Both the position numbers and the translations under genes were made by a program. DNA of 64,000 bases from Lama guanicoe. Taxonomy: Eukaryota. The notes beneath the pieces are model-generated. The model did no database searches, was not told the origin of the DNA, and saw only the letters and a list, made by a program, of their open reading frames with translations. This document shows, piece after piece, positions 7,090-61,541 of this stretch. Positions within the stretch are counted from its first letter, which is position 1. Every line of letters starts with the position of its first letter. The stretch is from the NCBI GenBank assembly GCA_013239625.1, contig MU053629.1, positions 4,491,567-4,555,566 on the forward strand, read 5' to 3'.

Positions 7090-7091
7090 TG

Positions 7092-7124
<33 letters not shown>
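7090..7124. repeat. (GT)n microsatellite
   Basis: Near-perfect gt run. Confidence 0.9.
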
Positions 7125-7125
<1 letters not shown>

Positions 7126-8310: not shown

Positions 8311-8359
8311 ATTTAAATATTTTGTAAAGATTCTGACATTCAGCTGTGATCTTTTCCAG

Positions 8360-9548: not shown

Positions 9549-10763
9549 AACCGCAGGCAACACATTCTGACATTAATCTTAGTAATGTTCTCCTAGGGCA
9601 GTCTACCCAGGGAATAGAAATAAGAGCAAAAATAAACAAATGAGACCTAATTAAACTTATAATCATTTGCACAGCAAAGGAAACCATAAGCAAAACAAAA
9701 CAACAACCTACGGGATGGGAGAAAGTATTTGCAAATGATGCGACTAACAAAGGCTTAATTTCCAGAATATATAAACAGCTCATACAACTTAATAACAAAG
9801 AAACAACCAACCAACTCAAAAATGGGCAGAAGACCTAAAGAAGCAATTCTCTAATGAAGACATACAAATGGCCAATGTCACATGAAAAATGCTCCATATC
9901 ATTAATTATCAGAGAAATGCAAATCAAAACTGCAATGAGGTATCACCTCACACCAGTCAGAATGCCCATCATTCAAAAGTCCATGAACAATAAATGCTGG
10001 AGAGGGTGTGAAGAAAAGGAAACCCCCCTACACTGCTGGTGAGAATGTAGTTTGGTGCAGCCATTATGGAAAACAGTATGGAGGTTCCTCAAAAAACTGA
10101 AAATTGACTTACCATATGATTCAGCAATCCCACTTCTGGGTATATATCTGGAGAGAACCCTAATTCAAAAAAAATCAGCACCCCAATGTTCATAGCAGCA
10201 CTGTATACAATAGTCAAGACATGGAAGCAACCTAAACGTCCATTGACAGATGACTGGATAAAGAAGTAGTGGTATATTTATACAATGGAATACTACTCAG
10301 CCATAAAAAAGAATAAAACAATGCCACTTGCAGCAACGTGGATGGACCTAGAAATCATTATTCTAAATGAAGTAAGCCAGAAAGAGAAAGAAAAATACCA
10401 TATGATATTATTCATATGTGGAATCTAAAAAAAAAGAAGAAAAGAGGACACTAGTGAACTCATCTACAAAACAGAAACAGACTTACAGACATAGTTAACA
10501 ATCTTATGGTTACCAGGGAAAGGGAGTGGGAAGGGATAAATTTGGTAGTTTGAGATTTGCAAATGTTAGCCACTATATATAAAAATAGATTTTAAAAAGT
10601 TTCTGCTGTATAGCACAGGGAACTATGTTCATTATCTTGTAATAATCTTTAATGAAAAAAATATGAAAATGAATATATGTATGTACATGCATGACTGGGA
10701 CATTGTACTGTACACCAGAAATTGGCACATTGTACTGATGGTACTTCAAATTTTTAAAAATAA
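9549..10763 (+). mobile_element. 5'-truncated lineage-specific L1 (ORF2 C-terminal remnant + 3' UTR) with TSD
   Basis: ORF2-like peptide [20 protein letters not shown]; artiodactyl-type 3' UTR (tttgagatttgc...ctgtatagcacagggaactat); flanking direct repeat taaaatatatt at 9538-9548 and 10764-10774. Confidence 0.9.
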
Positions 10764-14759: not shown

Positions 14760-15858
14760 TCCCAAAGGAAACAATAGCAAAAAAAGAAAGAAAGAAGAAA
14801 GAACAAACGAACGAACGAACCTAATTAACTTAAAAGCTTTAGCACAGCAAAGGAAACCATGGACAAAACAAAAAGACAACCTACTGATTGGGAGAAAATA
14901 TTTGCCAATGATATCACCAATAATGGGTTAACATCCAAAATATGATAAACAGCTCATACAACCCAACCTCAAAAAATAGGCAGAAGGTATTTTTCTAAAG
15001 AACACATCCAGATGGCCAATAGGCACATGAAAAGATGGTCAACATCGTTAATCATCAGAGAAATGCCAATCAAAATCACAATGAGATATACCTCTCACCT
15101 ATCAAAAGAACCACAAATAACAAATGTCGGTGAGGTTGTGGAGAAAAGGGAACCCTTGAACACTACTGGTGGGAATGTAAATTGGTACAACCACTATGGA
15201 AAATAGTATGGAGGGTCCTCAAAAGCTAAAAATAGAACTACTATGTGATCCAGCAATTCTACTCCTGGGTATATATCTGAAAAAAAAAAACACTAATTCA
15301 AAAAGATACATGCACTCCAATGTTCATAGTTGCATTATTTGTAACAGCCAAGTTAGGGAAACAACCTAAGTGTCCATCAACAGATGAATGAATAAAGAAG
15401 ATATACTGCATATGTATATATAATGGAATACTACTCAGCCATTAAAAAGAATGAAAATTTGCCATTTGCAACAACATGGATGGACTTGGAGGGTATTATG
15501 CTTAGTGAAATAAGTCAGACAGAGAAAGACAAATACTGTTTGTTATCACTTACATGTGGAATCTAAAAAATAAAACAAACTAGTGAATATAACAAAAAAG
15601 AAACAGACTCATAGAGAGCAAACTAGTGGTTACCAGTGGGGAGAGGGAAAGGGGAGGGGCAAGATAGGTATAGGGGATTAAGAGGTACAACCTATCATGT
15701 ATAAAATCAATAAACAACAAGGATATAGTATATAGTACAGGGAATCAGTCAAATTTTATGGTAACTATAAATGGAGTATAACCTTTAAAAATTATGAATC
15801 ACTACATTGTACACCTATAACTTATGTAACATAGTACATCAACTATATCTCAATACAA
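14760..15858 (+). mobile_element. L1 3' portion (ORF2 remnant + 3' UTR)
   Basis: ORF2-like [26 protein letters not shown]; 3' UTR ending ...caactatatctcaat. Confidence 0.85.
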
Positions 15859-16613: not shown

Positions 16614-17695
16614 GTGAGTATGAAGTGTGTCTATGAGATGTAATAAGCTAAGAAAACAGACCGTGACAACCAACAGGAATGCCGCTTCTCATGCATTTTA
16701 ATCAGCATGCTGATTTATTGGAAGTCTATCTTGTTTTGTTCAGATCTTCAAGTATTTCATAAATTGACTTTAGGTGTGGCAGTGGGGGTTCATAAGTAAG
16801 CTGATTAATTATCCAAAATTGATGGGTAAGGGGCTAGTTTGAACAACATAGTACACTTAAAAACAAACACCTACAAGGCACAGCAAGTCTGACTGGTGAG
16901 GAACCAGCTCAGATGCCCTGACTGCAGGCAGCTGTCATTCTGGCTTGCTTAGAAAAATGCTCTGGTGACTTGGCAAGATGCTCCCCAAAAAGGCCGGGTC
17001 TGGAGCCCCTCCTCACATCCCGTTCCAGCCCTGACACAGGCTCCTCTAGACACATTTACGTTGGGAAGAGTCCTGTTGCACCACTCAGGAGGCTTCTCTG
17101 TGCTTCCTTCCTGCAAACGTCTCTCCAGGGTGTTCTGGAGGGCTGGCAAAGTTGTCTCCCCATCTAGGACTCAGAACTTTGGAGCCACAACCTTGAATTG
17201 CATTTTATTCATATGTTGGAATGTAGTTATTTGGTACATTTAAGTCATCCTGACTTATCCTTTTAACATCTACAGCATATTGAAGAGAAAAGGTGAGCAA
17301 ATATAAACTTTTCTTGTGTTGCTTGATTTTCTCTGGGGGATTAAGGAGAGGCTCTTCATGAGATGGCTGGGCTTCGTTTGGCTTTATTGCAATCAGGCCA
17401 CGTCGGGTGAGGGCTCCAGGAAGGGATGACCTTACAGACCAGAATTGTGTGGCTCGGCTTTGCTGGGATAACTTCATACTGACTCCATTATATTGGGATA
17501 TTTCCGGAAACAGTGGAATTTGAGGAGAAATTTCAAGGAAGGGAAAATGAAGGAAAGTCTACAAATGAATTACTAATAGGGAAGGGGACTTAAGAGTCCA
17601 TCCAGTTTTTTTGGTTCCCAACCTGGGAACCATGGACCTGAGGAGGCTGAGGAGGGGTGGCGAGAGGGGCTTGAATACATGTGTGGACCCAGCAT

Positions 17696-17738
17696 CACAC
17701 ACACACACACACACACGCACGCACACACACACACACAC
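17696..17738. repeat. (CA)n microsatellite
   Basis: ca run with cg interruptions. Confidence 0.9.
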
Positions 17739-18937
17739 AATTTTTTTCAAAGCATGTGTCTCAATCTTTAGTATATGTAAGAATCACCTTAGGGGGGCTT
17801 GGTGAAACAACACATTCTAGAATCCCAAACCCAGAAATTCTGATTTTATTGATCCGGATGGGGCCCAGGAATTTTTTCAGAAGCACCCAGGGTCTAATAC
17901 ATACTGATCCTGTGGCAACAAAATACAAATCACTGTTAAAAATGAATGAGTCCAAAGGTGACTTTGGCTATTACTTTTTCTATTAAAGGAAGAGATACTA
18001 ATGTTCAGTAGCTATAAGGGGTAGGGATGGGGGTCTTTGGATTTTGTGACTATAACTCAAAAAGTTTGGAAGCACTTATCTAGTCCAACTCCTTCATTTC
18101 AGAGAAAAAGAAATGACGAGCCAGAGAGCTTAAGTAACTTCCCCAAAGTCACACAGTCAGTGGCAGGACACAGAATGCTGTCTCCTGTCTTTGGGCCTGG
18201 GACGCTGCCTCCTCCCACCCCGAACCAAGGGAACGCCCAGTCAGGCTGGAAGGCAGCCATTCCAAATGGGTCCAAGCCTTAGACTCTAAGGTGACTTATT
18301 TTATAGGTAACAACTGGGAAAGAAGTAATCCCAAAGTTCTCTGCAGCTGCCTTAAGGAGCAGCTAGCTCTTTAGGTTTACCCCCTCAGGGCAGAAAAATC
18401 TAAAAAAATTAATCCACTCACTTAATCTCTTTTTTCCCTTTGATAAAATCTGAAAAAATAGCTAGAGAAATACCCTAGCACTTTGTTTCCAAGTTAAAAC
18501 TTAGAATGATCTAGTTGTCTGGGAACGTTCACTGACCGCAGTTTAATTCTGCAGGATCGTTGGCAAGCTGTCTCTGAAATCCTTACGTGCGTGTTCAGCG
18601 TCACAAAGACAGCTCTCCACAAATGGGGCACATTCTCTTCTGCACATAGATGGGGCACACTCATAAGAAGCAGGAATCACTTGTATGCGTGATAGAAAAT
18701 AAATCCTAGATGAAAGTTCCCAGAATACTGAGGTGCAAATGCCTCTGTAGGCAGATGAATTGTTAGGCACGAATTACACGCAGCAACAATTCTCCTAAAC
18801 TAACTTAATTTTTAACATGAGCTAATACTAGTGTCCTGGCTCAGTGGTAGCCTTTTGCTAGGAATGACTGAACCTATTCCTACATTCTGCTAAGTTGATT
18901 AATAAAAAATATTTATTACACAAATCCTTTTTGTTGA

Positions 18938-28800: not shown

Positions 28801-28997
28801 CATGAAAAAACAGGTATCGTTAGAAGAAAATGAAATGATATTTAATTATCATTAAGTAAAGAAGCATTTTTAAAACAGCATGAAATCTATGACTCCAAAT
28901 TATGACTTTTTAAAAATGTATACATATATGTATACACACACACACACACACAGAACTGTAAGGATAATCCCCAAAATGTTAACAGTGCTTACTTCTT

Positions 28998-29270
28998 TTT
29001 TTTTAATTGAAGTATAGTCAGTTTACAATGTTGTGTCAATTTCTAGTGTACAGCACAGCGCTTCAGTCATACATATACATACATATATTCATTTTTATAT
29101 CTTCTTCATTGTAGGTCACTATAAGATGCGAATATAGTTCCCTGTGCTGTACAGTATAAACTTGTTTACCTATTTTATATAGTTAGTATCTGCAAATCTC
29201 AAACTCCCAATTTATCCCTTCCTCCCCTCTTCCCCTGCTGGTAACCAAGTTTGTTTTCTATGTCTGTGAG
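28998..29270 (-). mobile_element. Short lineage-specific L1 3' fragment with TSD
   Basis: Poly-T, ttgaagtatagtcagtttacaatg...tctgcaaatctcaaactccc; TSD taac(a/t)gtgcttacttctt at 28980-28997 and 29271-29288. Confidence 0.88.
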
Positions 29271-32200
29271 TAACTGTGCTTACTTCTTAACGGTGGAGTT
29301 TTTTCTTTCTGTATTTTCTGTCTTAAAATGAACTTTTCCTTTTTTTAAATAATGAAGCAAGTAAAACAAAAATCTAATTTGGGGTAGGTTGGGAAAGAAA
29401 AATACTGATTTCTGCGTTATAAGTTCTGCTATCCAAAGTGATAATGAACTTAGGAACATAGCCTGGGAATATCATAACCACCTCCCTGCTCCAAGGTCCC
29501 AAAGCTGTCACCAGATAGCAATGGCATGTTCCCTAGCACCGTGAATTGAATGTTTTAGTCTAAGCTTAATATTCTTAGTCTGAATATTCTAGAATTCACA
29601 CCAGACCATGACTTTAGTGCCATATCTACTCATGCAAACAGAGCAGAAACTCAGAGAGATTAAATAATTTTCCCCAAATAATAAAACCAGCAATAGAGAG
29701 TTCTGATTCAAACTTAGGGAAGGGAGTAATGATGTGCCTAGAGTCACAAGGCTTCTTCAAGAAAGAATATAGATAGACTAGAACCCAGGGCTCCTGACTC
29801 CCTGTCTAAAGCTCTCTCAGCCACACTCTCTCTCAATGACACACTGGGTCAATAAATTGGAGGGGGGGCCTAACTTGCTGCATAGTTTAAACAGTGACCA
29901 ATACATGCTGCTAAACTTCTCTGAAGATTACACAGTATATTCACTTGGCGCTGTGAAGTGCCACCCCGACAACACTTGCAGTCCTGAGCTTATTTGATGT
30001 GGTTGGGAAGCAAATGAGATTCCAGTGCCCCTGTTGCGCATAGGTGCTCAATGAGCATTTCCTGCATGGTGGGAAAGTGCCCTATATTTACAGAATTTGA
30101 TCCAGTTTAACAGCAAGATCTAATGTTAAAATTAGCCTTGTAAAAGTTTTCACCCTAGTTCACACAAAAACAAGATTCTGAGGTTATGACTAGCAATTTT
30201 TCATGAGTTGATTTATCTGAATAAAACCTATAAGGTTTTGAACCATTAAACATTCGATTTAGGAAAAAAAACTTAGTGTACAGAAGAATAAACTGAGAAA
30301 TGGAACAGATTTGTTTCTTGTAATAATTATGAGCAATATCTCAAACTCAGCATCTTAGACCATTGAGCTGTGTAGGATGAATGTGCTAATTAATCAATTA
30401 CTACCCAACAATGTACCCTGTTTATTTACTGAAATGCACCAGAAACGTGTGCAGAACTGGTAATTATTAATCATCTTCAGTAACAAATATGACTCAAGTT
30501 CACCTTCATATAATTAATAGAGCATGCAGTTAGCTTTAACATCTTGCTATATCAGAAACAGCAACAAGGAATAAAAAGAAAGAGCTGAGCCACAGTCGTG
30601 GTTCCCTGAAGTGCCGGCTCGGGCTCAATGTGCCTACTACCCTGAGCAGCGGCATTACTCACACCCGTCCAAACTATGGCCAGATGCTCGCACCATTAAA
30701 ATCCAAGTTTTTAAAACTAAACTTTTTAATTTGAATTGAATTTTTAGACTTACAGAAAAGTGGTCAAAGTAGTCCAAAGAATTCCTATATACTCTTTATT
30801 CGGGTTCCCCAAATGAAATCCAAGTTTTAGAGCTTGAGAACTTGCTTGGAGTCGGAATCTTTGTTGGTGGTGCCCACAGTCCTTAGTGCATGCCTCTTAA
30901 TTTTAAAGATATTTTTAAAGTACGTTCAATGTACATAGAAGTAGCTGTTTAACAACAAATTTTGCAAGTGATTGTGGAAAAAAATTTTTTTTTCTTTGAG
31001 AGGCATCATGTAAGCCCCCAAATTTCCTTTGTGTCAGACAGATTTCTGGGCTAGATGAGCTGTACTTTTGATCTAGAATGCTATTTCCTGATTCCTTACT
31101 AATCGTGTAGCATTTAAAGGATGTTAAACTGTGCCAGCTCCTTTTATCTCTGGGTCTAGCATCAGATGACTCTTTTTCACTGTGGTCAAACAAGGGGCTT
31201 TGAGGCCTGCCAATCTGAACCAATGTAGGTTCGAATCCCAGCTCTACTACCTGCCTGCCCTGTGACTGCAGGTAGCTTATTTTAACTTCTAACTACTGAT
31301 ACTTGGCTTCCTCAGCTTGAAAATGAGGAAAATGAAACCCTGCTCTGGAGTGTCACCTCAGTGAAACAAAAGGTGGAAACTACCTGGCACGAAATAAACA
31401 CTCAGTAACAGGTCAATACTATTACATTGACACGATTGCCCTCTGTGGCCACTTTTAGCTTAGAAAACTGAACTGTGTGCATGCACGCATATACAAACAA
31501 AAACGTTACTTCGTACAATGGTAACAGCAATTGTAGATTCACATTTTTGACGTTTCCTCCTGAAGGGAAAAACTGGATGAAATGTAACGCTATTGTACAG
31601 TAAATTTAAAACCTGCCCCATTGGAAAATACCACTGGAATGCTACTTCAAAAACCTAAACAGACAAATAGTAAATCAGTGGCCGGACTACTGTATTTCTA
31701 TTATAAAATGATTCGAGGCCCCTTTAAATGGAGAGCCCCCTTAGGGCATCTCAGTATTTGTTTATAGATCATTAACTACTTGACAGTGAGAGTGGGGAGG
31801 GGGCAGAAAGACTCACAGCTAAAGTGCTGAGAGCCACTGTCAGCTGAAGATCGGCAATAAAGTCAAAACATCTTAGGAATTTGATTTGAAAATACGATTT
31901 CTGCTACAAAAATGTCTTGTGTTATTCATGAATGTATCGGTTAGTAAAACAAGGCTCACAGTACAAAGCTGAGACCATAACTATGACTCAAGTGACAAGG
32001 TAAATTTACTTGGCCATGTTTTCAAATGCTTCCCCGAACACTGACTACATACTATGAAGATTGTAACATTGAAAACATGCCCATAAAATGGACTGTATTA
32101 TCTACCAGCATAAATCATTATCTGGTTTCAAAAAGTCACAAATATGTCTCCTTGCTACCGGACACCAGCATCTGCAGCAGAATAGCATAGACATGCTTCC

Positions 32201-37394: not shown

Positions 37395-38260
<866 letters not shown>

Positions 38261-41200
38261 CTCCAGGACTGGCCGTGGTCCTGGTCTTCTGTATCCCCCG
38301 CCCAGTGGATGCTTGTCAGGGCTAAGTTGTTGCTCCTGAATGGTTCCGAGAAAGTGGGGCTTAGCCGCAGGCCTGTACCCCCACCCCCACCCCCCTGCCG
38401 CATCATCCCTGGGGAGGGGGCAATCCATCCTCACTTCCTGCGGCTCTGAACTAGGAGGACCCGTACATTGGGCAGTAAGAAGGAGGATGTAAGCCGCTGG
38501 AAAGAGGCTCTGAAGTTTAAAAAAAAAAAAAAAGCCTTATTGCATGACAGACGTACTTCCCGTGAACATCACTTTGTGGGTGCGTTCATTTTATAAAAAC
38601 TGGAACTACAGTTAAAGTTTCTTTGTTTTATTTATATGAAATCCCAGCAAGTTCGTTTTACTAAAAGCACTAAAGATTTTCAGCAGTGATGTTATCCTCT
38701 TCGGATGCTAGGCCTAAAAGATATTTAAAAGACTGTCTTTTTAATCTTGGTATATTTTCATAGGCATATCCTAACTCACAGTATTTACTCTAGCGGGATG
38801 TTTATTTTCTTTTGGTTGATGACCTGAAGAAGAGGCGTGAACATTGACATGAATGTATCTTTTATAGGTCAGTGAAAAATAGGCCTCAAGATGTTTTGAA
38901 CCTGTTAATAGCTCATATCAAATTAATCCAGATTTCAGTAATTCAGAATGTAGACGTGCGAACTGACCCATGTTACCCAACCAGTTTTTTGTACCAGAAT
39001 TAAAGCTAAATCCCTGTTCAGCTGCAATATTACTATATAGTCTGAGAGGTCCTTAAATTTAAATATGGTATATGTATTTTTGCTTATAATAATTCATGGG
39101 GTTCTGGAACCATTGCTCCACTGGGACTGTTCTGGGTTCAGTCCATTAAGGAGAAGATTATTTACCACTGTGTAACCCTGTAAAAATATGTTTTATTATT
39201 TGACTGATGATAGAGCATGCCCATTAATTTTGAGGTTGATATGAGGTTGAAGATTGTGGTGACTTAGAAAATTCAGTTCCAAGTTATTTGGAAAGACTGG
39301 AGTGATGACGAGATTCAAGAAGAATAAGTTTATTTTAGCGTTTCCAGAATCAGAAAAAATCATTCTTCCCAAATGTAGAGTAATAGGTTAGGAAAAGCAT
39401 TAACAGGCGGGTTATAGGTAAACCGGGAGCCTAATGCCTTTTTAAAAAAAGTTTTCACCATTTAAAAGCTAACACGTTTAGAACACCTTAGTGGTTAGGG
39501 GCTTCTCTTTTAGGTGTAAAGAAATCCAAAGAAAAATAGGATGCCCAGAACATTCTCATATAGAAAAGTAGTAAAACCTTTTGAAGAAAGAAACAACAGC
39601 TGTAGTTTTTCTGACGTGGAAGAGAAAGCCGAATAGTGATTTAATGGTCTTTGTGGTCTTCTGAAAATTCTAAAATTCCTACGTAAAAGAAAACAAGAGT
39701 TTTAAGTTAAACAAAAGAAAACTTTCTGCTCAAGCATGCTTTAATACAAATTGGCTTATACTAATAAAGGGTTTTTATTTTTTTTGCTGGACTTTTTAAA
39801 AGAAAGTCCATTTAAAGAGTATTCACCAATTTGGTAATGTTTATTTTGTATTTTTGTCTCAAGATAGGGAATTACATAATAGGATTCTTTCCTGTTCTTG
39901 TTGTGCAGTTGCCCCTCTGGATCATCAAGTACAAGTTCTGTTAAAAAATCTTTTTGAATTTAATCCTTTTCTTCCCTTCCAACTTAGTAATTATCAAAGT
40001 AATTCACTTTTCCATTTTGTAAATATTAAAGATTTCCCTTTTACATATTTGTTCCCTTTCTTCTGCCTTCATTTTCAATGGAAGCTGACATTTTACTGAT
40101 GGTTTACCAGCCTGGGTATCATGCTGCGAAGTAGATTGAGATTTAAGAAAAGCAACTTACCATTGGAATGAATGGGTAATCAGAGACTTGCCACAAAGTT
40201 CTAATTTTTTTTAAGTGCTTAATTTGACAGTGGTTTACCTACTGTTCAGCTGACTCAGAATGAATCATTATGCAAAGAACTGACTTTCACATTTATTTTG
40301 ATGTTATGTGTTTCAGACAGTGTGGAAAAAATTTAATTTTTCATGGAATCTTACAGACTTTAAAGCATATGTGCTATAGATAAAGAAAATTGGGGTTTTT
40401 TTAATTTGTCAATTATACAAGTGATTAATCTTCCCATTTTGTATACTAGCCTGACTGCATTAAATTAAGTGGACTGCAGGAAAAAAAAGAAATAAAGAGT
40501 TTCTGATTCCCATATCACTTCTCCATCCCCTGTCAAACAGCCTTAATGATAATGGTTCCTACTTGCTTCTTAATAAGATAAAATGTAGTTATTATTAGAC
40601 TAGTAGTCTTTGATCAGTCCTACATCTTAGCTGAAAAAATATTGACCATTTGTGTGATTTTTTTTAAGTGTCAATATTTTAACTGAAAACTGTGATAAAT
40701 ACTATAAAACAGCAATTTCAGGGTCACCAGCCACTCCTTAAATTTATGTCCTTAGCTTTGGTTTACAAGTCATATTTTGTGTATTTTATTCTCACTGTAT
40801 TTGGAAAATTAATCATTATTTCTAGAGCCTGTTTTTTCTTTCTCACTCCATTGATTTTCAGCTTTTGAAGTTGTGATACCGTGTTTTAAATTTATTTATT
40901 TCAACTGTTTCCTCCACTCTTGACTCTCTTCTGCCTGTCTTCTTGCTCTCTTCCTCACTCCCCCACTCCCCGCCAACACTTGCCTTTTTTTTTTCCATTC
41001 CAGTTAAATGATTTATAAATAGCTTTACGATGCTAGTTTTTGTGGATTTTTTTGTGACATTCCCTGAGGCATTTAGAGATTGGGGGGAGGTATTATCAAG
41101 GCGAAGAAGGCAGCATACTGTAAAAGGTTTCATAGGAGTTCCAGGGAGCCCTGTGATAGTGACAAGCTGTGACCTAGTATATTCCTAAAAATAGAGGGGT

Positions 41201-42370
41201 GCCAGTCTGAATGGGCATTTTTGCCTCTTCTCAGTGCCAACTAGTGATGCTTCTCCTGATTAATCTTTGGCATCACAGTGGTTGGAGTGCAGCTTCAGGG
41301 AATAAGCACAAAATAGGCCAGCATACTTAAACACTCAAAAAGAGCATAATACAGCAAATATACTCTTGCAGGAAAAATAAGAAAAAGATCAGGAATATGA
41401 TTAGTCCTGCGCATATGTCCATTTCCCTATTGACTAGGAAGAAAGTCATTTTCCAAACGTACAGCTCTTTAAATTGTCGTTTTCTGTCCAACTCCTACAT
41501 AGGAACAGTAAAATTAATACTCGTATAGAGCATCCAATATTTGTTATTGATTTAAGTGCCTGTGGTTTTATACATGTTTTTTAATATGTTAAAAGTCGTT
41601 GGTTTTAAATAAGTGCCTTAAAAAATAAGAATTGTGGAAGTTAGTTTTGTGTCCAACTTAGTGTCATACGCATATGAGTGCTTAAATCCATATCTCTGGG
41701 TAGTGTATGTTTAGTTTCGTGTATCACAAATGGTAACTAATCACAAATGGAAATATTCCAAAGAAAAAGCATGTTGTCTGGGTCTGCTGTGTACCTATTT
41801 CAAATAGGTTGAAATGAGATTTTCAGATCAGTTGTAAAAATACTGACGGGATTATTTCTTTCTCGTGTTTGTCATCATGCTGAGATCTTCCTTAGAGTTG
41901 GTTTCCGCCTTTGGTTTTGAAGGCAGCTATTTGACCCAGTTTCTTTAAAGTTGTACAAAAAATTATTTTAGCCATCAATATTACCGTCCAACTTAAAGCG
42001 CAGTAAAGATGACCTAGTAATTTAAGCTCAAGGCCAATAATTGGGAAACATCAGCTAAATTAATGAATATTCTGTTTGCTTATTTGTGAAAAGAATATAG
42101 AACTACTTCCTAAGTACTCGGAGATAATGAATTAATGCTTGTAAAGTGCTTTGAATTAGAGTTTACAGCAGTCTTATTTATAGTTTTAAAAAATCTCTGG
42201 GCTCACACAGTTGTTACGTTGTTACCATGTTCCACAAATGTAGATGAAATTGAGCTCTTAGGTAGAGTCAGTATTTACTAATATTTTAATATTTTTGTAG
42301 CTTTATGATCTGTTGATGTTGCTCAAGAGTGCTGTGTGATTTGTACCAGGACAAATATACGAGTACATGA

Positions 42371-42544
<174 letters not shown>

Positions 42545-46529: not shown

Positions 46530-47710
46530 ATTTAAATTATCATCAGTAAAATTAAAAATTTTTGTGTTTCAAAGGACACTGTCAAGAAAATGAAAAGATA
46601 ACTGACAGAATAAGAGAAAGTATTTGCAAATCATATATCTGAAAAGGAACATGTAGCCAGACTATATAAAGAACTCTTATAACTCAATAATCCAATTGAA
46701 AAACAGATTTGGACAGACATTTCTCCAAAGAACTTACACAAATAGCCACTGAGAACATGTAAGATGTGTAACACTATCACAGAAGTGCAAATCAAAACCA
46801 CAGTGAGATAATACTTCATACCCACTAGGATGGCAATCATCAAAAGGACAGATAATAACAAGTGTTGACAAGAAATACGGAGAAATTGGGACCCTCAGGC
46901 ATTGCTAGTGGGGCAATGTTAAATAGTGCCACCACTCGGAAAAGTTTGGTGGTTCCTCAAAATATTAAATAAGGAATTACCACATGACCCAGCAATTCTA
47001 TTCCTAGGTATATACCCTAGAGAACTGAAAATATGTTCACACAAAAACTTGTATACAAATATCCATAATATTACTTGTTCTAGCCAAAAATTGGAAATAA
47101 CTTTTATATCAATTGATAATAAAAATAAAATGGGCATATTCACACAAGAGAATATTATTCAGCCCAAAAAGGAAAGAAGTACTGGTCCATGCTACAGCAT
47201 TGATGAAGCTTGAAAACATTATGCCAAGTGAAAGAAGCCCATCATAAAAGACCACATATTCTATGATTCCATTTATATGAATGTCCAGAATAGGCAAATC
47301 TATAGAGATAGAAAGTGGATTAGTGATTGCCTAGGGCTAGGGAGGTTGGGAGGAAATGAGAAATGACTGTTACTGGGCATGGGGTTTCTTTTTGGGGTGA
47401 TGAAATGGTTCTAAAATCGATTGCAGTGATGATTGCACAACTCTGACTATACTCAAAACAGAAGAACTGTATGATATGTAAATTATCTTTTAATAAAGCT
47501 GCTAAAAAATTAGTAAAGGGGGAGGGGAAATGGGCAGCTAGTATCTAATAGGTATAGAGTTTCAATTTTGCAAGATACAAAGAATTCTGGAGATGGATGG
47601 TATTGATAGTTACACAGTAATGTGAATTACTTAACATGAACTGTACACTTAAAAATGGTTAACATGGTAAATTGTATGTGATGTGTATTTTACCGTATAT
47701 AAAAATAATT
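46530..47710 (+). mobile_element. Old L1 3' portion (L1MB/L1MC-like) followed by a second short L1 3' end (~47515-47710)
   Basis: Peptide WFLKILNKELPHDPAILFLGIYPRELK; two successive 3' UTR termini. Confidence 0.8.
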
Positions 47711-50084
47711 TATAAAAATTAGTGAAGGATTCAATATTACTATGATAAAACACAACTGATTGCATGATTTCTATAGAAAATAACTAAGTTTAGAAAAACG
47801 CTAGAAATTAAAAGAGGTGAAATGTTAATTTAACACTTTGTATGTTGTATTCTTGGAATTTTAAACATTTTAATATGAATCCTAGTTTTAATCAAGGAGA
47901 TGAAATCTCATTTGGGATCATTTTTGGTAGCACTAAGTAAAGGATATACTTGGTTTGAGATTATTTAAGATAAGACCAAAGGAAAGTACGTAAAATGTTA
48001 GGAAATGAAAATATCCTTTTTTAGATCCTAGTTGCTGGATACAGAGTATCAGCTACTACTAGAATGAGATTGTATATAGTATTGCTTATAGCTATTTTCT
48101 TTGCACTTATATCATTTTAAATACAGTTTATGAACATTGTACCACTCCATTATATTATTAATTTATCTTCAGTGATATTTATAGTATCAATTTAAAAGCT
48201 GTAAAACTTCATGAAAAGTAGCTTAAACAAGGATTTTGATAAACAAAAGCTTTCAGTTTTTAAAAGCAAATCATGTACTTCCTAAAGACAACCTGAAGTT
48301 TTTTTACATTGTTGCTGCTGATGATAGAATTACGAACCTTATAAACGCAGTATTTTTTAGTTAACCTAAATACATAAATCTATTTGAGTTCATCTTATGA
48401 AAAGAGATATGTCATTAGATATATGATCATTATATGCTTTAGTGATTCATGGACCTTGTTACATACATGCTTTGTAATGTATGAATTATTTAGTAAGAAA
48501 AATCACAATAATTTTGTTGTTACTCAAAAATTTATGGGTTGGCAGAAACAATTATGCAGCCCCTGAAGCTGGTATGTTAAGGTAACATTAACACTATGTA
48601 GTATGATTTTTTTTTTTTAGTAGTTATTTGACATAACCTTTACTGCTTCTGCTAGAATGTATCAGTGATTTTATAACAATCTTTTCTAACAAACAGAACA
48701 TTGAATTTATTAACCACAAGTGATTCATTTTACTCTATTTTCATATAAATGCATAATTTAAAATCAGATCTAAAAAGTTGTCTACCTAAACTCTAAAGGA
48801 AGAATTAAAATATACAAAATAAAAATCAATACTATAATAAATAGATACAAATTTAAAATTCCATTTAACAAAATGGATATTTTTATTTCAAAAAATGTAT
48901 ACGTTTATGAATTGGATGAAAAGAATTCAAAAAGGTAGATTATCTTGCAATATTTCTTTACACATGGTGTTAAGGCTCTGACTATGAGATAAAGCCAAAA
49001 TTTTAGTTTCTTATGCTTTCAAACCTCTGAATTTTATAAAATGAAGGAACCACGAATTTCCAAGTGTGAATAAAAATCTAAACAGTAGGACTTACTTTTA
49101 ATTTAAAAATCAACATTCATTCAATCCTACAAATCTTTTTGCATTGACCATGCTGAAGACAAATTTTAGTAATTTTACCTGTCAACAAAATCTAGTAATT
49201 CTGAACCTACATACAGGGTCCCTTCAAGCCATATTGAAAAATACCACTTCTGTACACAGCAGAATGAGAACCGCGTGTTACTGATTTTTGTGTTTCTGGT
49301 ATTCGTCATACAATGAAGGCTCTATGTCAAATGAACATGTGATAATTCAAAATTAAAAAGGAAACTTGCCTTCATCTTAAAGAGCTTTAAGAAAAGGATA
49401 CTTTAATTGGAAATCATATGGATTCCTTATAAAACAGCAACAAGTGTGGAAATATTATCTCAGATGTAATAAACGCATTTACACTGTTCTATGCATTCTG
49501 CAAAATAAAAGATTAGAATTTTGTTACATTAGCCTTTTAAGGCATTTCAAAAGGTGCCAACTCTTATCTCACGCAGGAATTTGCTATTTTAAAGTCAAAT
49601 AGAACGATGTGTAGAAGTACATGAAGTGAAATATTAAACACAAAATACTAGGATCAATTGGACATGCTCTCTTTAAACAGAACTAGAAATAGTACATTAG
49701 TAACAAGGAGACAAGAAAAATGTTTTAATTGAATTGGCAAAGAATGGGATGGCTTATCTCTTGAGGCAGTGAGTCCTGTTACTGGAGATGTCCAGAGGCT
49801 GAATGACAATTCCTCAGGTAAATGTGGAGAGAATGCTTGAATTGGGCAGAGGATTAGGTTGGTGATTTTGTAAGTTTCCTTTAACTCTGAAATTTTATTA
49901 CCATTCTTGCATACCTATGTGCGATTTAGTTCGGAGTTTACTGCTGTTCCATTATGTATGTGATACAAAGAACCTTGTTTTGAAGATGAAAAATACGGTT
50001 TAAGTTCTTGCTGTACCAATACTGATTGAATGAGAAAAATTAGAGCTTTCTTAGCGTCTCGTATACAATAAGGAGTTTATCTAA

Positions 50085-50310
50085 CACTTGCAAAGTGTAC
50101 CTTGTGCCAGGTCCTAGACTAAGCACTTTACACATTCTAACTTACTTAATCCTCTCATAACAACTCTGTGAGTTAGGCACTGTTTTTCTTCCCATTTTTT
50201 GGCTGTGGAAACCAAGAAGTCTTGCCCAGGGTCATGCATGGTGAGTGTTATTCCAGTCCCTGCAGTCTGTCTCCAGAGTCCATGTTCTGAATCATTACTC
50301 TGTCCTTTGC
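50085..50310 (-). mobile_element. MIR SINE
   Basis: gtgccagg...ctaagcactttaca...ttaatcctctcataacaactctgtgag...cttgcccagggtca. Confidence 0.7.
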
Positions 50311-50836
50311 TATGATGCACAGGATAACGTAGGGAGAAGTGTTTTGCGAGCTGTAAAGTGCCACAAAAACGTGGGATATATATTTTGTTAGTTATTATAA
50401 AGAAAATAATATAGATACGTTTGCACAATGAAAAGAGGGAAATAAGCTTAAGTAATCTGTAGGAACTCTACCTAAAGGAAAATGTGTTAGGTAGAAATCA
50501 AACCTAGTGCCCTTAGAAATTAATGCATTAATTCATTTCAGAGCATCTAAAGTCCATAGTACCTGGTACACAGTACGTGCTCCATGAGTATCTGTTGAAC
50601 TGTTGTTTCTGCTGCTGCCTGGGTGCTGGACCTGCTCCCACTGTCCTTTTCCATTCCCACCACAACAGAAAAGAGCAGAGTTCCCTGTCACACTTTCAAG
50701 GGTTTGTCCCTGATCACTTCTGTCCATGCTTCTTCACCGTCTCCTTTTTTAAACTAATGGATATTAAGCAACATGAGGAAAATGCTTAAGTTTATTGTTT
50801 AGTCATTATTGCTACTGGAAATTATATCTTTTTAGA

Positions 50837-51213
50837 ATTCCTGGTCCCCGTCCCTAGCTTACTTTTCTCCTGGCACTCATCACCATATGCTGTGCCACAC
50901 GTCTCACTTATGTGTTTATCTCCCCACTAAACTATAACTTCATGACGGGAGGGAACTGTATGTGTTTTATTCATCGCCACATCCCTCATACCTAAAATAG
51001 TACCTGGCACACAGTAGGCACTTTAGTAATGTTGATTGAATGAGTGGATTCTGAAGGCAAAGTGCATTGAGTAATGGGAATGCAATTACCATGAGCATTT
51101 CCTGTCCTGAGTCTCAATTGCACCTTTGCCTTTCCTCCACCACCACCACCAACACCATCACCACCGTGCAGACTGAGACAACAACCATTATAGACTTCCA
51201 CTGAACCGCAGAC
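50837..51213 (+). repeat. Left arm of long inverted repeat (L2 3' end + unique flank)
   Basis: Reverse complement of 51961-52336 (e.g. attcctggtccccgtccctagcttacttttctcctggcactcatcac). Confidence 0.95.
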
Positions 51214-51254
51214 ATTATTGTAAACGTGTCGAAATGCAAGGCAGTTTTAAAAAG

Positions 51255-51840
51255 CTTTTAATTTTGCAATAATTTTAGTTTTACAGAAAAGTTGCAGTAC
51301 AGTACAGAGAGTTCCCAAGTACCCTCACCCAGATTCCCCTAACATTAGCATCTTACATAATCAGTGTACACATATCGAAACTAGGAAGTCAACACTGGTA
51401 CCTTATTACTAATAAAACTCCAGACTTTATTTGGATTTCACCAGTTTTTCATCACTGTCCTTTTTCTGTTTCAGGATTTCATTGGCGATCCATTACATTT
51501 AATCATCAGGTCTCTTGTGTCTTTTGTAGTCTCCTCAGGTCTGTGACAGTTTCTTTTTTTTTTTTAATGATCTTGACAGTTTTGAAGAGTACTTGTGAGG
51601 TATCTTGGAGAATATCCCTCAATTTGGGTTTGTCTGACATTTTCTCCTAATTAGTTTGGGGTTATGAGTTTTGGGAAGAAGACCAGAGGTTAAGTGCCAT
51701 TCCTACTGCATCATATCAGAGAGCACGCAACAACAAATTGACTTATCACTGGTGATGTTAACCTTCATCACTTGGTTAGGATGGTGTCTGCCAGGCGTCT
51801 CCATTAGAAAGTTACTGTTTTCTTCCTCTATTCTCATCAT
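51255..51840 (-). mobile_element. Old L1 (L1MC-type) 3' end in the inverted-repeat spacer
   Basis: tacagaaaagttgcagtacagtacagagagttccc...tttgggtttgtctgac; reverse homolog of 7700-8310. Confidence 0.75.
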
Positions 51841-51960
51841 ATTCTTTTAAATCAAAATTAACCAACAAGTATTTGAATGTTAGATGTGAAGACTCACAAA
51901 GGCACTGAAAGAGACAAGTGGAATTCTTGAACATACGAGGCAATCAATATTTGTTACAAA

Positions 51961-52336
51961 GTTTGCAGTTCAGTAAGAGTCTATAATGGATATTGTCTCA
52001 GTTTGGATGGTGGTGATGGTGGTGGTGGAGGAAAGGCAAAGGTACAAATGAGACTCAGGACAGGCAGGAGATGCTCATGGTAATTGCATTTCCATTACTC
52101 AATGCACTTTGCCTTCAAAATCCACTCATTCATTCAATCAACATTACTAAAGTGCCTACTGTGTCCCAGGTACTATTTTAGGTATGAGGGATGTGGCGAT
52201 GAATAAAACACATACAGTTCCCTCCCATCATGAAGTTACAGTTCAGTGGGGAGACAAACACATGAGTGACACGTGTGGCACAACATATAGTGATGAGTGC
52301 CAGGAGAAAAGTAAGCTAGGGACGGGGACCAGGAAT
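51961..52336 (-). repeat. Right arm of long inverted repeat
   Basis: Ends ...gtgccaggagaaaagtaagctagggacggggaccaggaat. Confidence 0.95.
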
Positions 52337-52870
52337 CGTGCACACCTGCGTGCTTGCACCTGTGGGCAGGGTGGCTTTGGGGATGCTTCTCAGTAGTGTG
52401 CTAAGGGAAGGCCTCAACAAGAAGGTGATTTTTAAGTCAATATCTGCAGAATGTGAGGGAATGAGCCGTGTGGATAGCAAGGGTAAGAGGATTCCAGGCA
52501 ATGGAAATGGCAAATGCAAAGGCTCTGAGGTGGGATGCTGAAATGTTCAAGGAACAGTAAGAAGGAGGCTGGTGTGAATGAGGTTTGAGAGATCATAAGG
52601 CCAGATGGCAAGGAGGGCAGAATGTATGGAGTTTTGTAGGTCAAGGAAAAGACTTTAGTTTTTATCCTGCACAAGTTAGGAAGCCATCAGCAGGGTTTTA
52701 ACCACAGGAGTGACTTAATCTAACGCTGGCAGTTGGGTTGACTGTTGGTAGCAGGGGCAAGAATGGAAACAGAAGTCTGAGAGAGAAATATAAATATAAT
52801 GATAGTTTGGACTGGGATCGTTACCTGTGAAGTGGTGGGAAGGGATCACATTCTGGGTTAAGGACTCAAG
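52125..52870 (-). mobile_element. L2 element (3' end inside the right arm, body continuing beyond it)
   Basis: cattcattcaatcaacatt...gtgcctactgtgtcccagg; ggcaaatgcaaaggctctgaggtggga; ggaagccatcagcagggtttt. Confidence 0.8.
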
Positions 52871-52964
52871 GTTGGGAGTAAGGTAAAACGAGATGAATTC
52901 TCTGAAGGTGTAACACTAAAATGTTAATTTGTCTCATTAAAAAAATCACTTTACAACAAAAAAG

Positions 52965-53325
52965 ATATATCACCCAACTAAAAATGGGCAAAGGACTTGA
53001 ACAGACAATTCTTCAAAGAAGATAAACAAATGGCCAACAGACATAGGAAAAGATGGTGAACATCACTGATCACTAGGGAAATGCAAATCAAAACCACAAT
53101 CAGGTATCACCTCACTCCCACTAGGATGGCTTCTAACAAAAATACAGAGAATAACAATTGTTGGTGAAGATGTGGAGAAACTGGAATCCTTGGGCTATTG
53201 GTGGGAATGCAAAATAGTGTGGCCATCGTGGAAAATGGCAGCTCCTCAAACAGGTGAAAAACAGAATTATTATATGATTCAGCAATTCTACTTGTGGGTA
53301 TATGTCCAAAAGAATTGAAAGTACA
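52965..53325 (+). mobile_element. L1 ORF2 C-terminal fragment
   Basis: aaaaatgggcaaaggacttgaacagaca...gaaatgcaaatcaaaaccaca. Confidence 0.8.
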
Positions 53326-54479
53326 AATTGAGTTGGTTTTCCCCATAGTACTATGAATAAAAAAGCCATTTTAACAAATCAGGCTTCATGGAAAATCTCT
53401 AGTTTTGTGGTCTATTTTCTCAAATAATAGGAAATGAACTTGCAATAAAAAGTGCACGGGGACCTTGAGCAGATGGTTTATTTTTCACAGGACTGAAGTG
53501 CAGGTGGAAAGGGGCAATTCCTACACTATGTGGAGTATCTGACTAAATGAATTCCTACCTAAGCCATTAATTTATAATAACTGAAAAGAGATAATTTGTC
53601 TTCTACAATGGACTTTCAAATTAAATATAAAACGAAAGCAGGCAGAAACAATATGCAGAAAAAAATTGGTATTATACCCAAACTGACCAATATTTAAATT
53701 ATTTTTTCTCATATTAATCAACTATTTGACTATCAGAGAGAAAAATGACATTCATCCCGCAGCGAATTTATACAAAATTCAGTCCCCCGAAGTAAAGCGG
53801 TGTGTGCAATTTTCTTAGAAAGAGATAAAGGACGAACCCACGCGTTGCAATTTGTAAACAAACTTCTACATCATAGATCAACAAAATTATGCATTTAAAA
53901 ATCTGAGGTTAACAAGTCACTTAAAAATAACCAAGGGTTATTGCTACTGCCTGTGACATCACTGATTAGGTAAAATGGCTATCTAGTTGACAACTTACGG
54001 ACTAGAGCGGATATTTTTTGCAACGGTTTAATAAGAAAAGACGATGCCACTACTGCAGCTGTCCCCAGGCAGTTAAACTCCACTGGACTTATGTACTGTT
54101 GCTTTTAAATAGGGGGCTGTTTACTATTTTAGGGCAACGGTGGGATGAAGGACCTTACTGAAAAAAATCCACACTCGCTTTGCTCGTTGGGGAGAAAGAT
54201 GATGATCTCTGGATCTGTGACTTGGAATAAGGAAAAGAAAAAGGCACCCGCGCTCTTGATGATTTGATGCACAAACCCCCACGAACATTTAGGTGCAGGG
54301 CCAGACTAGCAGGGATAAAGGAGAGCTGCCGTTCCATCCTCTCAGCCTTCTGTAAAGGCAAACCTTACGCATCTGAAGCCACCAATCGGCTTTTGGAGGA
54401 TCCCTGCCCTCGTTCCGTTTCCTCCTTCGTTTGTCAGATGTTTCCACCTCGCTGACTTTAATGAGGGTCGGGAAAGGAA

Positions 54480-55300
54480 AGGGTCGTCACTCGGTGGCCG
54501 CGGGCGGTCACTTGGCGACGGCGGTCTCGGGAACGAGCAGCCCGGCCGGTCCCCTCCCTCAGGCTCCGGCGCGGCGCCCTCGCGCTGCGGGCCCCGCCCT
54601 CCCAGGGGCGGGGCGGGGGCGGACATGGCCGGGCGCTGCCCTCTTCCAACATGGCGCCGCGGGAGGCGGGTCCCCTCGCCGGCTCCCGGGGTTCCGGCGC
54701 TGCGCGTTTTGGTTCCGGAGTAACAGTGTCCGCGCCGTCGCCTTCCCCCTCCTGCCGCCGCCGCCGCCGCCGGGACGCACGGCCTCGGGTGCCCACGGCT
54801 GAACCGCGCGCGCCGCGCACTCTGGCTCAGGGTTGAGGCCAAGGACCCCCTCCCGACCCTCCTGCTGAGGGCGCCCCTCGGCTTTCCCGCGGCCCCAGGG
54901 CTCCTGCCGAACAGCCCCAGACTCAGTCCCCTCAAGTCGGGGACCCCCCCGCTCCTTCTAAGGAGGAGTGGACACCTGCCGCTGTCTCCCCCAAACGGGG
55001 AGTCTTCTCTGTGCCATCTCCTCACGCCCACACAGACGGCGGATTGCTGCACGATCCGGTTTGCCCTGTTCCTAACTCCAGAACCTTCTGACCTCTGCTA
55101 GTTCCTACTGGCTCCTGCCCCTCGCCCCGTCCACGCTCCCGGGGAGACATCCCTCCGCCCCACACAGCCTGGGCCTGGCTGGGGGCCTGCGGGCCGCTTC
55201 CGGACCACCTCCTCTCTTCGCTGCCCCTCCCTCTCTGTCTTCGGACCCTCGGTCCCCTTGTCACCTCTTGGAGCCCCCGCCTAACCAGGGGCCAGTGGGT
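54480..55300. promoter_or_regulatory. MAP2K5: CpG island / MAP2K5 promoter and 5' UTR
   Basis: High CpG density; CCAAT ~54382; tandem GC boxes 54605-54622; YY1-like CAACATGGCG ~54647-54656; (GCC)n ~54754-54771. Confidence 0.9.
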
Positions 55301-55335
55301 ACCCCCTACCAGGATGTGAGCCCCTTTAACCTGTA

Positions 55336-55470
55336 ATGCTGTGGCTGGTCCTTGGTCCCTTCCATGCCATGGAGAACCAGGTGCTGGTGATTCGCATCAA
55401 GATTCCAAATAGTGGAGCGGTGGACTGGACAGTGCACTCCGGGCCGCAGCTACTCTTCAGGGACGTGCTG
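55336..55470 (+). CDS. MAP2K5: MAP2K5 (MEK5) coding exon 1, start of PB1 domain: MLWLVLGPFHAMENQVLVIRIKIPNSGAVDWTVHSGPQLLFRDVL
   Basis: Recognisable MEK5 N-terminus; 135 nt; CTG/gtgagt donor. Confidence 0.96.
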
Positions 55471-56719
55471 GTGAGTGCTAATCTCAGTGTGCCAGTCCCA
55501 GCGAGGGGGGCGCAGGGATTTGTGGGGTAGTCAGCACCTTGATCATTGAATCTTACCTTGGTGGCCTGAGCTAGTGGCCATGCTGGCCTCATGTTGGGGC
55601 AGTTTTATTGCTTCAGCCACAAACATCGATTATTTGCATGGACAGAAGTCTGATAAATGTGCAGGTCCCTGGGGGAGTAGAGGTGAATCGGGTTGAACCC
55701 CTGCCCTCAAAGAGCTCACAGACTGGACTGGGACATAACACATAGAAGCAACTAATTGGGATACAAAATGCTGAATCTAGAAGAGAGTTTTTCTCAAGTG
55801 TTTAGTGGAATGCCCCTGGCCAGAATCCAGCCATGTTTCTACTGAGTTCCCTGAACTTGGTGACTAGTGGGAAAGGGAAACAGGGCAACTCTAATCAATC
55901 ATATTTCAGCAAACCTAAGATGTCATAGGTTTTAAGATATTGTATATACCACTAAGAAAGATTATCTGTGACATGCCACACATTGTACAAAACCCAGTTT
56001 CAGGGATGTTAAAATAGAAGGGGAAATGTGCATCTTAAGAGTCAAAAATATAGTCTGACTTTCATAATAAATATTCAGAATGTATTTCAGAGAAAATCAT
56101 GGTGTGTTACAGTTGAGTATAACCTTGGAGGTGGCCTTTTGAGCCCTCTGATCTTTTTTTTGTTTGCAGATGGTTACGGAGAAGCAGAGAGGTGAAATGG
56201 CTTTTCCAAAGCCATGTTGCTTTTGAGTGGAAGAGTCAGTACCAGAACTCAGATTTCCTTACTTCGTGTTTATCCCCACACACTGCCGCGCCATGTCTTA
56301 TCTTTTAGCGTTTACTTGAGACAGAGTGCATTGTGCCCATTTTTTGTACTGAATCACTGAGCTGTCAAAGGCAGAGCTGATGTGCCAAGGATTGCGTTGC
56401 AAGTACCAGAACTAGAGTGGTGCTTCCCTGCAGGATAAGGTGGACGTTTTGGGGAAGAGGAGGATCTGTGATGTGGTTGTTGATTGTGATAGGTTACTCA
56501 ATCAAAATTTGATCCTTGTACCTTCAATTTGAGTTCTGGATGTTACTGAGCAACCAGACCACACGCATTTTTGGGTGTCTGGGCCAGGAGTGCAGAGGCT
56601 GGAGTAAACCAGCAGCCTCCAATCTTGTACACATATGCCATCCTTCTCTTTGTATCCAGAGCTCTCCACACACTCACACGCACGAGGATCTCGCTTCATG
56701 GTGAGGCCGGAACTCCTTG

Positions 56720-60744: not shown

Positions 60745-60970
60745 AAGAAATTGGGAGTTCGAGATTTGCAGATACTGACTGGTATGTATAAAATAGATAA
60801 ACAAGATTATACTGTATAGCACAGGGAGCTATATTTGATATCTTATAGTAGCTTATGGTGAAAAAGAATATGAAAATGAATATATGTATATTCACGTATG
60901 ACTGAAGCAATGTGTTATACACCGGAAATTGACACATTGTAAACTAACTATTCTTCAATGAAAAAAAAGA
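60745..60970 (+). mobile_element. Short lineage-specific L1 3' end
   Basis: tgggagttcgagatttgcagatact...ctgtatagcacagggag...ttcttcaatgaaaaaaaa; same family as 9549-10763 and 28998-29270. Confidence 0.85.
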
Positions 60971-61541
60971 AGTAAGTTTGTTGAATGTTGCCAGTGTAGC
61001 TCATGTTTATTACATTACTTAATATTTTTTACATTACCTCTGTAAGCATTACTAGACCTGTACTGGAGGATAATCAATATGAGGCTCAGAGAGGTTGAGT
61101 AATTTGTTTCCAGTCACACAGTGTAGAGCTGAAATTTAAACCCAGGCCAGCTCCCCAGACCTCCTTTTCTACTAACAGTACCTTCTTCCTACAGCCTCCC
61201 ATAGAAGAAACCTATTTTTTTTTTGTAAATACACAACAGTGTATTTGTCTACACTGTTGAATCGAGAGTAAAACATTATGTTACTAATACAAAGTAGAAG
61301 GATTTTTTAAAGACCCCCCCCTCCCCGCTCCCGCCCCAAATAGAGATTTAAACTCCAGAATAGAGATTTAAACTCTGGACTTAGATTGCTGGGCTAAGTG
61401 TGATTATGAGCTAATGTTTTTATAGTTTATGCCAGCATTTCAAAAAATCTCTCCCAGGTTCTCATATTTCCTCTAGGATTTGCCACATGTTAGCAATAAA
61501 GAAGATGGCTAATTGTGTTTCTTTATTCTTTCTTTGTTTAG

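What the first reader, a model, noticed from the sequence alone, without database searches (positions are those of the whole stretch)
50837..52336. Long, highly identical inverted repeat upstream of MAP2K5 made from ancient DNA
50837-51213 is the reverse complement of 51961-52336 (arms ~375 bp, spacer ~750 bp). By manual alignment the outer ~315 bp differ at about 14 positions plus two 4-nt indels (~95% identity), and several CpGs survive in both arms. The inner ~60 bp are clearly more diverged. The arms contain an L2 3' end plus non-repeat flank, so they are not two independent TE copies; independent L2 copies are far more diverged. The right arm continues into the L2 body while the left stops abruptly at 50837, implying a local inverted duplication. 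High outer identity with an inward decline fits ongoing arm-to-arm gene conversion (inference). The structure could form a hairpin or cruciform, or a long dsRNA if transcribed by MAP2K5 upstream-antisense or C15orf61 read-through RNA.
Basis: partly seen in the sequence, partly recalled or inferred. Interest (0 to 1): 0.75.

Follow-up and report, generated by a model that had tools for sequence, protein, structure and literature searches.

The report
Inverted duplication scar upstream of MAP2K5
A 380-base piece of old junk DNA was copied backwards next to itself upstream of the MAP2K5 gene in a camelid-like mammal, apparently in two separate copying episodes; it is real but looks like an ordinary repair or replication scar, not a maintained device.

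Summary
The inverted repeat is real and at the stated coordinates (50837-51216 / 51958-52336, spacer 741 bp). The outer 320 aligned columns differ at 14 positions (95.6%), the inner 54 at 11 (80%); change-point p=0.0045. The decline is a step at a CCA tract with a 9-nt indel, not a gradient. The outer part is homogeneous (p=0.16-0.63) and matches perfectly up to its outer edge. CpG content is at background. Five runs under four organism labels hold 0.94-0.96 of sampled words, against about 0.86-0.87 expected if an arm were missing or fully homogenised. That argues against misassembly and against recent whole-arm conversion. Best reading: an old small inverted duplication, then one later templated copy (fold-back template switch or conversion tract) that wrote the outer 320 bp roughly 2-16 Myr ago. 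Outgroup orthologs, spacer orientation and expression remain untested. A 741-bp spacer disfavours a cruciform, and poly(A) hexamers disfavour full-length dsRNA. The scan noted similar local inverted duplications elsewhere in this genome and in other genomes. New member of a known kind; low interest.

The parts
50837..51216 (+). Left arm (likely derived copy): L2-like 3' end, then about 170 bp of flank with a CCA tract
   Evidence: L2 label recalled, not tested against a library
50837..51165 (+). Outer, younger part of the left arm: 14 mismatches in 320 columns, K2P 0.045 (0.022-0.072); outermost 47 columns identical
51137..51165 (+). (CCA)n tract carrying a 9-nt arm-to-arm indel; coincides with the identity step
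51166..51216 (+). Inner, older part of the left arm: 10 mismatches in 48 columns, K2P 0.257 (0.114-0.483)
51217..51957 (.). Spacer, 741 bp; 51246-51795 is an old dispersed repeat (L1-like 3' end, label recalled) with a paralog at 7783-8317 (66% identity)
51958..52336 (-). Right arm (likely source locus)
52337..52900 (-). Purine-rich right flank read as the continuing L2 body; no counterpart left of 50837
   Evidence: sequence, GC skew, no flank homology; L2 identity recalled
37691..42544 (+). Upstream two-exon gene with DUF4528 (C15orf61; name recalled); stop 8.3 kb before the left arm
55336..55470 (+).

Best explanation
A neutral scar built in two templated-copying episodes. Episode 1 (inferred; tens of Myr ago): a local inverted duplication placed a reverse-complement copy of at least about 50 bp of flank some 740 bp from its source. 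Episode 2 (inferred; roughly 2-16 Myr ago): during replication or break repair, a single strand folded back on this old imperfect pair and copied the outer 320 bp of the right arm into the left position, starting at the CCA tract and rejoining abruptly at 50837. Since then both arms have drifted at the normal rate. Within this umbrella I favour extension by a homeology-primed template switch (about 0.35) over a conversion tract across arms that were already full length (about 0.28). Shown: the repeat, the step, the uniform outer part, the sharp edge, and presence in several genomes. Inferred: order, direction, mechanism, dates and neutrality.
For: Step in identity: change-point p=0.0045; p=0.029 without CpG columns; AIC favours a step over a gradient; unchanged under 4 of 4 alignment settings. 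Outer part uniform: interval test p=0.16, Sawyer-type p=0.61, KS p=0.40. No aged fringe at the outer edge: 47 identical columns, P about 1e-5 if that fringe were as diverged as the inner part. Inner differences are mostly transitions (8 of 10), like ordinary ageing. Inner K2P 0.257 lies within the 0.15-0.32 range of 4 dispersed-repeat pairs in the window. Both arms, with most arm-specific words, are present in runs of four organism labels. Mechanistic precedent, from passages read: 94%- and 86%-identical and kb-spaced repeats fold back in single-stranded DNA in yeast (PMC10164571); template switching homogenises and expands arms (PMC8604942, PMC13100816); a first switch in inverted homology and a second at microhomology (PMC4352052).
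Against: No outgroup ortholog was obtained, so neither the ancestral state nor the age of the outer junction is tested. The inner segment is only 48-54 columns; with strong local rate variation (gamma shape 1-2), 10 or more differences in 48 arise with P=0.03-0.06. The interval test over the whole arm gives only p=0.042. The template-switch arm expansions in the yeast papers are far shorter (arms up to 48 bp in the passages seen, spacers up to 70 bp) than 320 bp across a 741-bp loop. Columns 48-110 hold 8 of the 14 outer differences; this is not significant (p=0.16) but would fit several conversion tracts instead of one event.
Confidence: 0.63

Rival explanations
1. One duplication about 2-16 Myr ago; the inner ~50 bp diverged more because of local hypermutability or error-prone synthesis next to the junction.
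For: Simplest history; the outer part is uniform; the inner block is short, and P=0.03-0.06 under strong rate heterogeneity; replicative junctions show raised point-mutation frequency (PMC4352052, passages).
Against: P=0.0008 under a uniform rate and permutation p=0.0045; the step survives removal of CpG columns; a roughly five-fold excess made mostly of transitions looks like age, not a junction error cluster (inference).
Confidence: 0.21
2. [quoted passage not shown]
For: The step shows that arm-to-arm copying happened after the first duplication. The upper bound of the inner age (up to about 110 Myr at a recalled 2.2e-9 per year) does not exclude a pre-artiodactyl origin. 8 of 10 outer transitions are G-U compatible on the minus strand, and its longest helix is 98 bp against 61 bp on plus.
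Against: No gradient or significant mosaic in the outer part. The arms differ by 4.4% plus indels, whereas actively converted primate X palindromes differ by under 0.2% (PMC8327919, passages). Word shares of 0.94-0.96 in all four organism labels exceed the 0.87 expected after full homogenisation. The G-U bias is not significant (p=0.11 outer, 0.24 overall), and transcription-linked A>G asymmetry would give the same pattern (inference). No Rfam match. The longest perfect run is 61 bp, and the arms are shorter than the 654-bp minimum among 24 human NAHR inversions (PMC6748972, passages).
Confidence: 0.11
3. RNA-mediated origin: a 5'-truncated L2 with 3' transduced flank, or a retrocopy of an antisense transcript, inserted next to its source.
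For: The left arm has the layout truncated L2 3' end + tail + downstream flank (sequence; L2 label recalled).
Against: No poly(A) or tail at the inner end of the left arm and no target-site duplication seen by eye. The 4.4% divergence is far too young for L2 activity (established knowledge), so later overwriting would still be needed.
Confidence: 0.03
4. Assembly artefact (fold-back chimera or mis-joined haplotypes).
For: Inverted duplications are a known class of long-read and assembly artefact (established knowledge); no long read was examined.
Against: The arms differ at 24-25 positions and by 3 indels. Of 24 listed runs, 14 in 6 studies hold 0.88-0.96 of the words, and 5 runs in 3 studies hold 0.94 or more, against 0.859 +/- 0.021 expected without one arm (P about 6e-5 each, binomial approximation). 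Leaving out the best holder as a possible source leaves 4 such runs in 2 studies.
Confidence: 0.02

Closest known systems
Localized non-tandem opposite-strand duplications and conversions in human DNA (Frith and Khan, PMC5829575; passages read)
   Same: [quoted passage not shown]
   Different: Here the duplication is shared across related organisms and has two age strata.
Template-switch inverted repeats: four-point model (PMC5453318) and arm homogenisation or expansion in yeast (PMC8604942, PMC13100816); passages read
   Same: Reverse-complement copying that creates or extends arms from an imperfect inverted pair; abrupt ends.
   Different: The described events are tens of bases with short spacers; here 320 bp across 741 bp. 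The ancestral state was not observed.
DUP-TRP/INV-DUP two-junction mechanism at PLP1 and MECP2 (PMC4352052; passages read)
   Same: First switch inside inverted (possibly homeologous) sequence, second at a non-homologous point.
   Different: Those events span hundreds of kb, change gene dosage and cause disease; this one is sub-kb and intergenic, and junction microhomology cannot be read without the ancestral allele.
Gene-converted palindromes of primate sex chromosomes (PMC8327919; passages read)
   Same: Inverted arms with evidence of arm-to-arm copying; the inner region is the least conserved.
   Different: Arms of 8-140 kb at over 99% identity that carry genes and are conserved between species; here 0.38 kb, 93-96%, no gene, conservation beyond close relatives untested.
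Recurrent human inversions between inverted repeats (PMC6748972, PMC3961182; passages read)
   Same: A spacer flanked by arms over 90% identical could flip.
   Different: The repeats there are 654 bp to 24.2 kb; no inverted allele was seen or testable here.

Membership tests
Local inverted (opposite-strand) duplication | Reverse-complement copy nearby that includes non-repeat flank, with sharp ends | tested here: met
   the inner flank has no other match in the window (genome-wide copy number not testable)
Local inverted (opposite-strand) duplication | Present in independent genomes, not an assembly error | tested here: met
   word shares, (indirect; no reads examined)
Local inverted (opposite-strand) duplication | Single-copy ancestral state in an outgroup | not testable with these tools
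   no ortholog obtained
Concertedly evolving palindrome / inverted repeat | Arm-to-arm identity of about 99% or more | tested here: not met
   95.6% outer, 80% inner; the 99% criterion is from PMC8327919
Concertedly evolving palindrome / inverted repeat | Arms within a species closer than orthologous arms between species | tested here: inconclusive
   among four close organism labels the arm-specific words are largely shared, which points against; distant relatives untested
Concertedly evolving palindrome / inverted repeat | Mosaic conversion tracts or GC-biased arms | tested here: inconclusive
   one significant step, no mosaic within the outer part; arm GC 0.44-0.46 equals the adjacent L2-like flank at 0.46
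Template-switch arm expansion | Pre-existing shorter imperfect inverted repeat in the ancestor, extended in the derived allele | not testable with these tools
   the older inner pair is consistent, but no ancestral allele was seen
NAHR-mediated recurrent inversion | Both spacer orientations exist | tested here: inconclusive
   word shares cannot separate orientations (expected 0.978 if inverted)
Cruciform-forming palindrome | Spacer of at most tens of bases | tested here: not met
   741 bp; strong spacer dependence in double-stranded DNA (PMC10164571)
Endogenous long dsRNA / hairpin RNA locus | One transcript spanning both arms, with editing or small RNAs | not testable with these tools
   folding is favourable on both strands; expression not tested; poly(A) hexamers intervene

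The most novel reading that the evidence does not exclude
A sub-kilobase, gene-free autosomal inverted repeat that predates the camel lineage, has been re-homogenised independently in several mammalian lineages, and is transcribed from the MAP2K5 promoter in antisense into a roughly 350-bp dsRNA stem whose mismatches are biased to G-U pairs on the transcribed strand, i.e. a maintained hairpin RNA or flippable element at a kinase promoter.
Probability: 0.07. Interest if true: 0.6.

Novelty: new member of a known kind. Interest (0 to 1): 0.22.

Why it matters
As it stands it is a tidy example of how short inverted duplications arise and get overwritten. If camel orthologs show only the inner pair, it would be a clear mammalian case of template-switch arm expansion over about 320 bp and a 741-bp loop, larger than the yeast and human cases read here, which is of modest interest for mutation mechanisms. 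Only cross-mammal conservation with dsRNA production would make it important for MAP2K5 regulation, and nothing here shows that.

Tried and rejected
No whole genome is held for this window, so genome-wide copy number is untested. A scan of metagenome contigs for the MAP2K5 first exon, to reach other mammals' upstream DNA, gave 572 pattern matches and 0 confirmed. Earlier findings by sequence and by relatives: nothing; the gene names were in no finding. Sequencing runs: no RNA holder listed, which is no evidence either way; 6 of 24 runs had small shares (0.05-0.17) and 4 of 24 had none, and these were not used. Laying contigs of 4 of the 24 runs on the locus gave no result, so relatives' arm sequences, spacer orientation and expression stay open. 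Rfam, 49000-55500: 0 matches. Residual homology outside the arms or between flank and spacer: none in 5 of 5 comparisons (p 0.19-0.95). CpG preservation: rejected. Gradient model: rejected in favour of a step. Mosaic conversion within the outer arm: not significant. G-U strand bias: not significant. Literature: 'MAP2K5' with 'inverted repeat' gave 4 papers, none on this locus by title and abstract start; 'MAP2K5-DT', 'MAP2K5 divergent' and 'MAP2K5 antisense' had 0 occurrences in the 25 listed of 34 papers; searches listed no paper on this repeat. Only open-licence papers were searched, and no supplements (e.g. genome-wide repeat or inversion tables) were opened; these could list the human ortholog.

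Full report
Observation. Self-comparison of the 64-kb window gives one long high-identity inverted match, 50837-51216 against 52336-51958. Perfect complementarity ends exactly at 50837/52336. A global alignment has 25 mismatches in 374 columns: 14 in the outer 320 (10 transitions, 4 transversions) and 11 in the inner 54. There are two 4-nt indels in the outer part and a 9-nt indel in the CCA tract at 51137-51165. With slightly tighter ends the counts are 14 of 320 and 10 of 48. The inner match is real: 39 of 49 in register, against at most 26 of 49 elsewhere in the window. The 9-nt indel was missed, and CpG retention (6 and 3 per arm, 3 shared, about 5 expected) is ordinary.

Context. The repeat lies 8.3 kb after the stop codon (42544) of a two-exon DUF4528 gene (the name C15orf61 is recalled). 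Earlier notes on this genome call it alpaca-like or camelid (not checked by me). The L2 label for the outer arm and right flank and the L1 label for the spacer are recalled and were not tested against a library. The spacer does match a dispersed repeat at 7783-8317 (66%), and a 43-bp stretch at 50556-50598 resembles the arms' repeat tail (77%). Nothing beyond the outer edge is homologous, so the left arm starts abruptly while the right arm runs on into the L2-like body. This makes the left arm the likely copy (inference).

Is it an assembly error? No whole genome is held. The run index listed 24 runs: 14 in 6 studies under four organism labels hold 0.88-0.96 of 267 sampled words, 6 hold 0.05-0.17, and 4 hold none. 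If either arm were absent, the expected share is 0.859 +/- 0.021; if the left arm were a perfect copy of the right, 0.871. Five runs in 3 studies, covering all four labels, reach 0.94 or more (binomial P about 6e-5 and 4e-4, approximate). The other nine full holders (0.88-0.93) include values that do not exclude those alternatives on their own. The best holder may be the source of the assembly; four runs in two other studies remain. So both arms, with most of their distinguishing positions, exist in several related animals. Spacer inversion cannot be told this way (expected share 0.978). An attempt to lay contigs on the locus gave no result, and no ortholog came from metagenomes or earlier findings.

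Shape of the divergence. A single change-point at column 320 is significant (p=0.0045, 2000 permutations). It persists without CpG columns (13 of 311 vs 8 of 45, p=0.029) and under 4 of 4 scoring schemes. A step fits better than a logistic gradient (AIC 170.1 vs 176.7; constant 179.4), and the outer part has no slope (p=0.63). The outer part is homogeneous by interval, Sawyer-type and KS tests (p=0.16, 0.61, 0.40), although 8 of its 14 differences lie in columns 48-110. Against this reading: the whole-arm interval test gives only p=0.042, and strong local rate variation could produce the inner excess with P=0.03-0.06. K2P distances are 0.045 (0.022-0.072) outer and 0.257 (0.114-0.483) inner. 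At 5e-9 per year (2.5e-8 per generation, 5 years; PMC8605555, passage) these give 4.5 and 26 Myr. At a recalled 2.2e-9 they give 10 and 58 Myr. Camels split from other even-toed ungulates 55-60 Myr ago (PMC3514880, abstract and passages), so both episodes could be camelid-specific. Four dispersed-repeat pairs in the window have K2P 0.15-0.32.

Mechanism. Two strata need two copying episodes, not continuous conversion. The younger stratum begins at the CCA tract with its 9-nt indel and runs with no aged fringe to the outer edge (47 identical columns; P about 1e-5 if as old as the inner part, 0.12 at the outer rate). The simplest account is that an old short inverted pair let a single strand fold back over the 741-nt loop, and synthesis then copied the outer right arm into the left position and rejoined at 50837. 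In yeast, 94%- and 86%-identical and kb-spaced Alu repeats form fold-backs in single-stranded DNA, while in double-stranded DNA longer spacers cut instability 20- to 47-fold (PMC10164571, passages). Template switching homogenises and expands short arms (PMC8604942, PMC13100816, PMC5453318; passages), and a homology-then-microhomology pair of switches is proposed at PLP1 (PMC4352052, passages). A conversion tract across arms that were already full length is nearly as good and predicts an old outer junction. Only orthologs can separate the two.

Function. Both strands fold into a stem of about 355 pairs (-787 and -808 kcal/mol; -806.8). On the minus strand 8 of 10 outer transitions and 12 of 18 overall form G-U pairs (p=0.11 and 0.24); this is not significant, and mutational strand asymmetry would mimic it. 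An antisense RNA from the MAP2K5 promoter meets poly(A) hexamers at 54462, 54032 and 53482 and four more in the spacer. A plus-strand read-through meets five in 49000-50836 alone (only 49000-54800 was scanned). Hexamers are not proof of termination. Rfam finds nothing. A cruciform is unlikely with this spacer. The arms are shorter than the 654-bp minimum among 24 human repeat-mediated inversions (PMC6748972, passages; PMC3961182, passages), and far from the over-99% identity of converted X palindromes (PMC8327919, passages).

Comparison and verdict. Nearby opposite-strand duplications are common (21 of 166 supported rearrangements in one human line; PMC5829575, passages). The scan has noted comparable repeats in this genome and a camel-lineage genome (PLXDC1, ARHGAP20-like, SCGB3A2, URB1; unchecked). 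Searches found no paper on this repeat (listings only, supplements unopened). It works like a template-switch or conversion scar and is a member of the local inverted duplication class. It does not meet the identity criterion for an actively converted palindrome. Odds: two-episode scar 0.63, single duplication with local excess 0.21, ancient ongoing conversion or functional dsRNA 0.11, RNA-mediated origin 0.03, artefact 0.02. Interest 0.22.

Noticed in passing
window 50556-50598: A 43-bp stretch 77% like the repeat tail inside both arms; probably another old L2-type tail (label recalled).
   Followed up: partly
window 9616-10535 and 14789-15658: Longest direct repeat pair in the window, 73% identity with gaps, K2P 0.23; L1-like, with further pieces near 46570-47033 and 52948-53323.
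   Followed up: partly
window 28988-29271, 60748-60976, 10481-10763: Three copies of a younger dispersed repeat 3' end (76-82% identity), resembling a camelid L1 end (recalled).
   Followed up: partly
window 7081-7134 and 17689-17742: TG and CA microsatellites in inverted orientation, 10.5 kb apart; ordinary simple repeats.
   Followed up: no
window 54647-54658: ATG-containing motif in the GC-rich MAP2K5 promoter region resembling a YY1 site (motif recalled); about 690 bp upstream of the coding ATG, so possibly also an upstream start codon.
   Followed up: no
window 47700-49700: Very AT-rich stretch (26% GC at 48001-49000) between the two genes.
   Followed up: no
window 50884-50946: 8 of the 14 outer arm differences cluster in 63 columns, 7 of them transitions; not significant (p=0.16) but could be an older unconverted patch.
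   Followed up: yes
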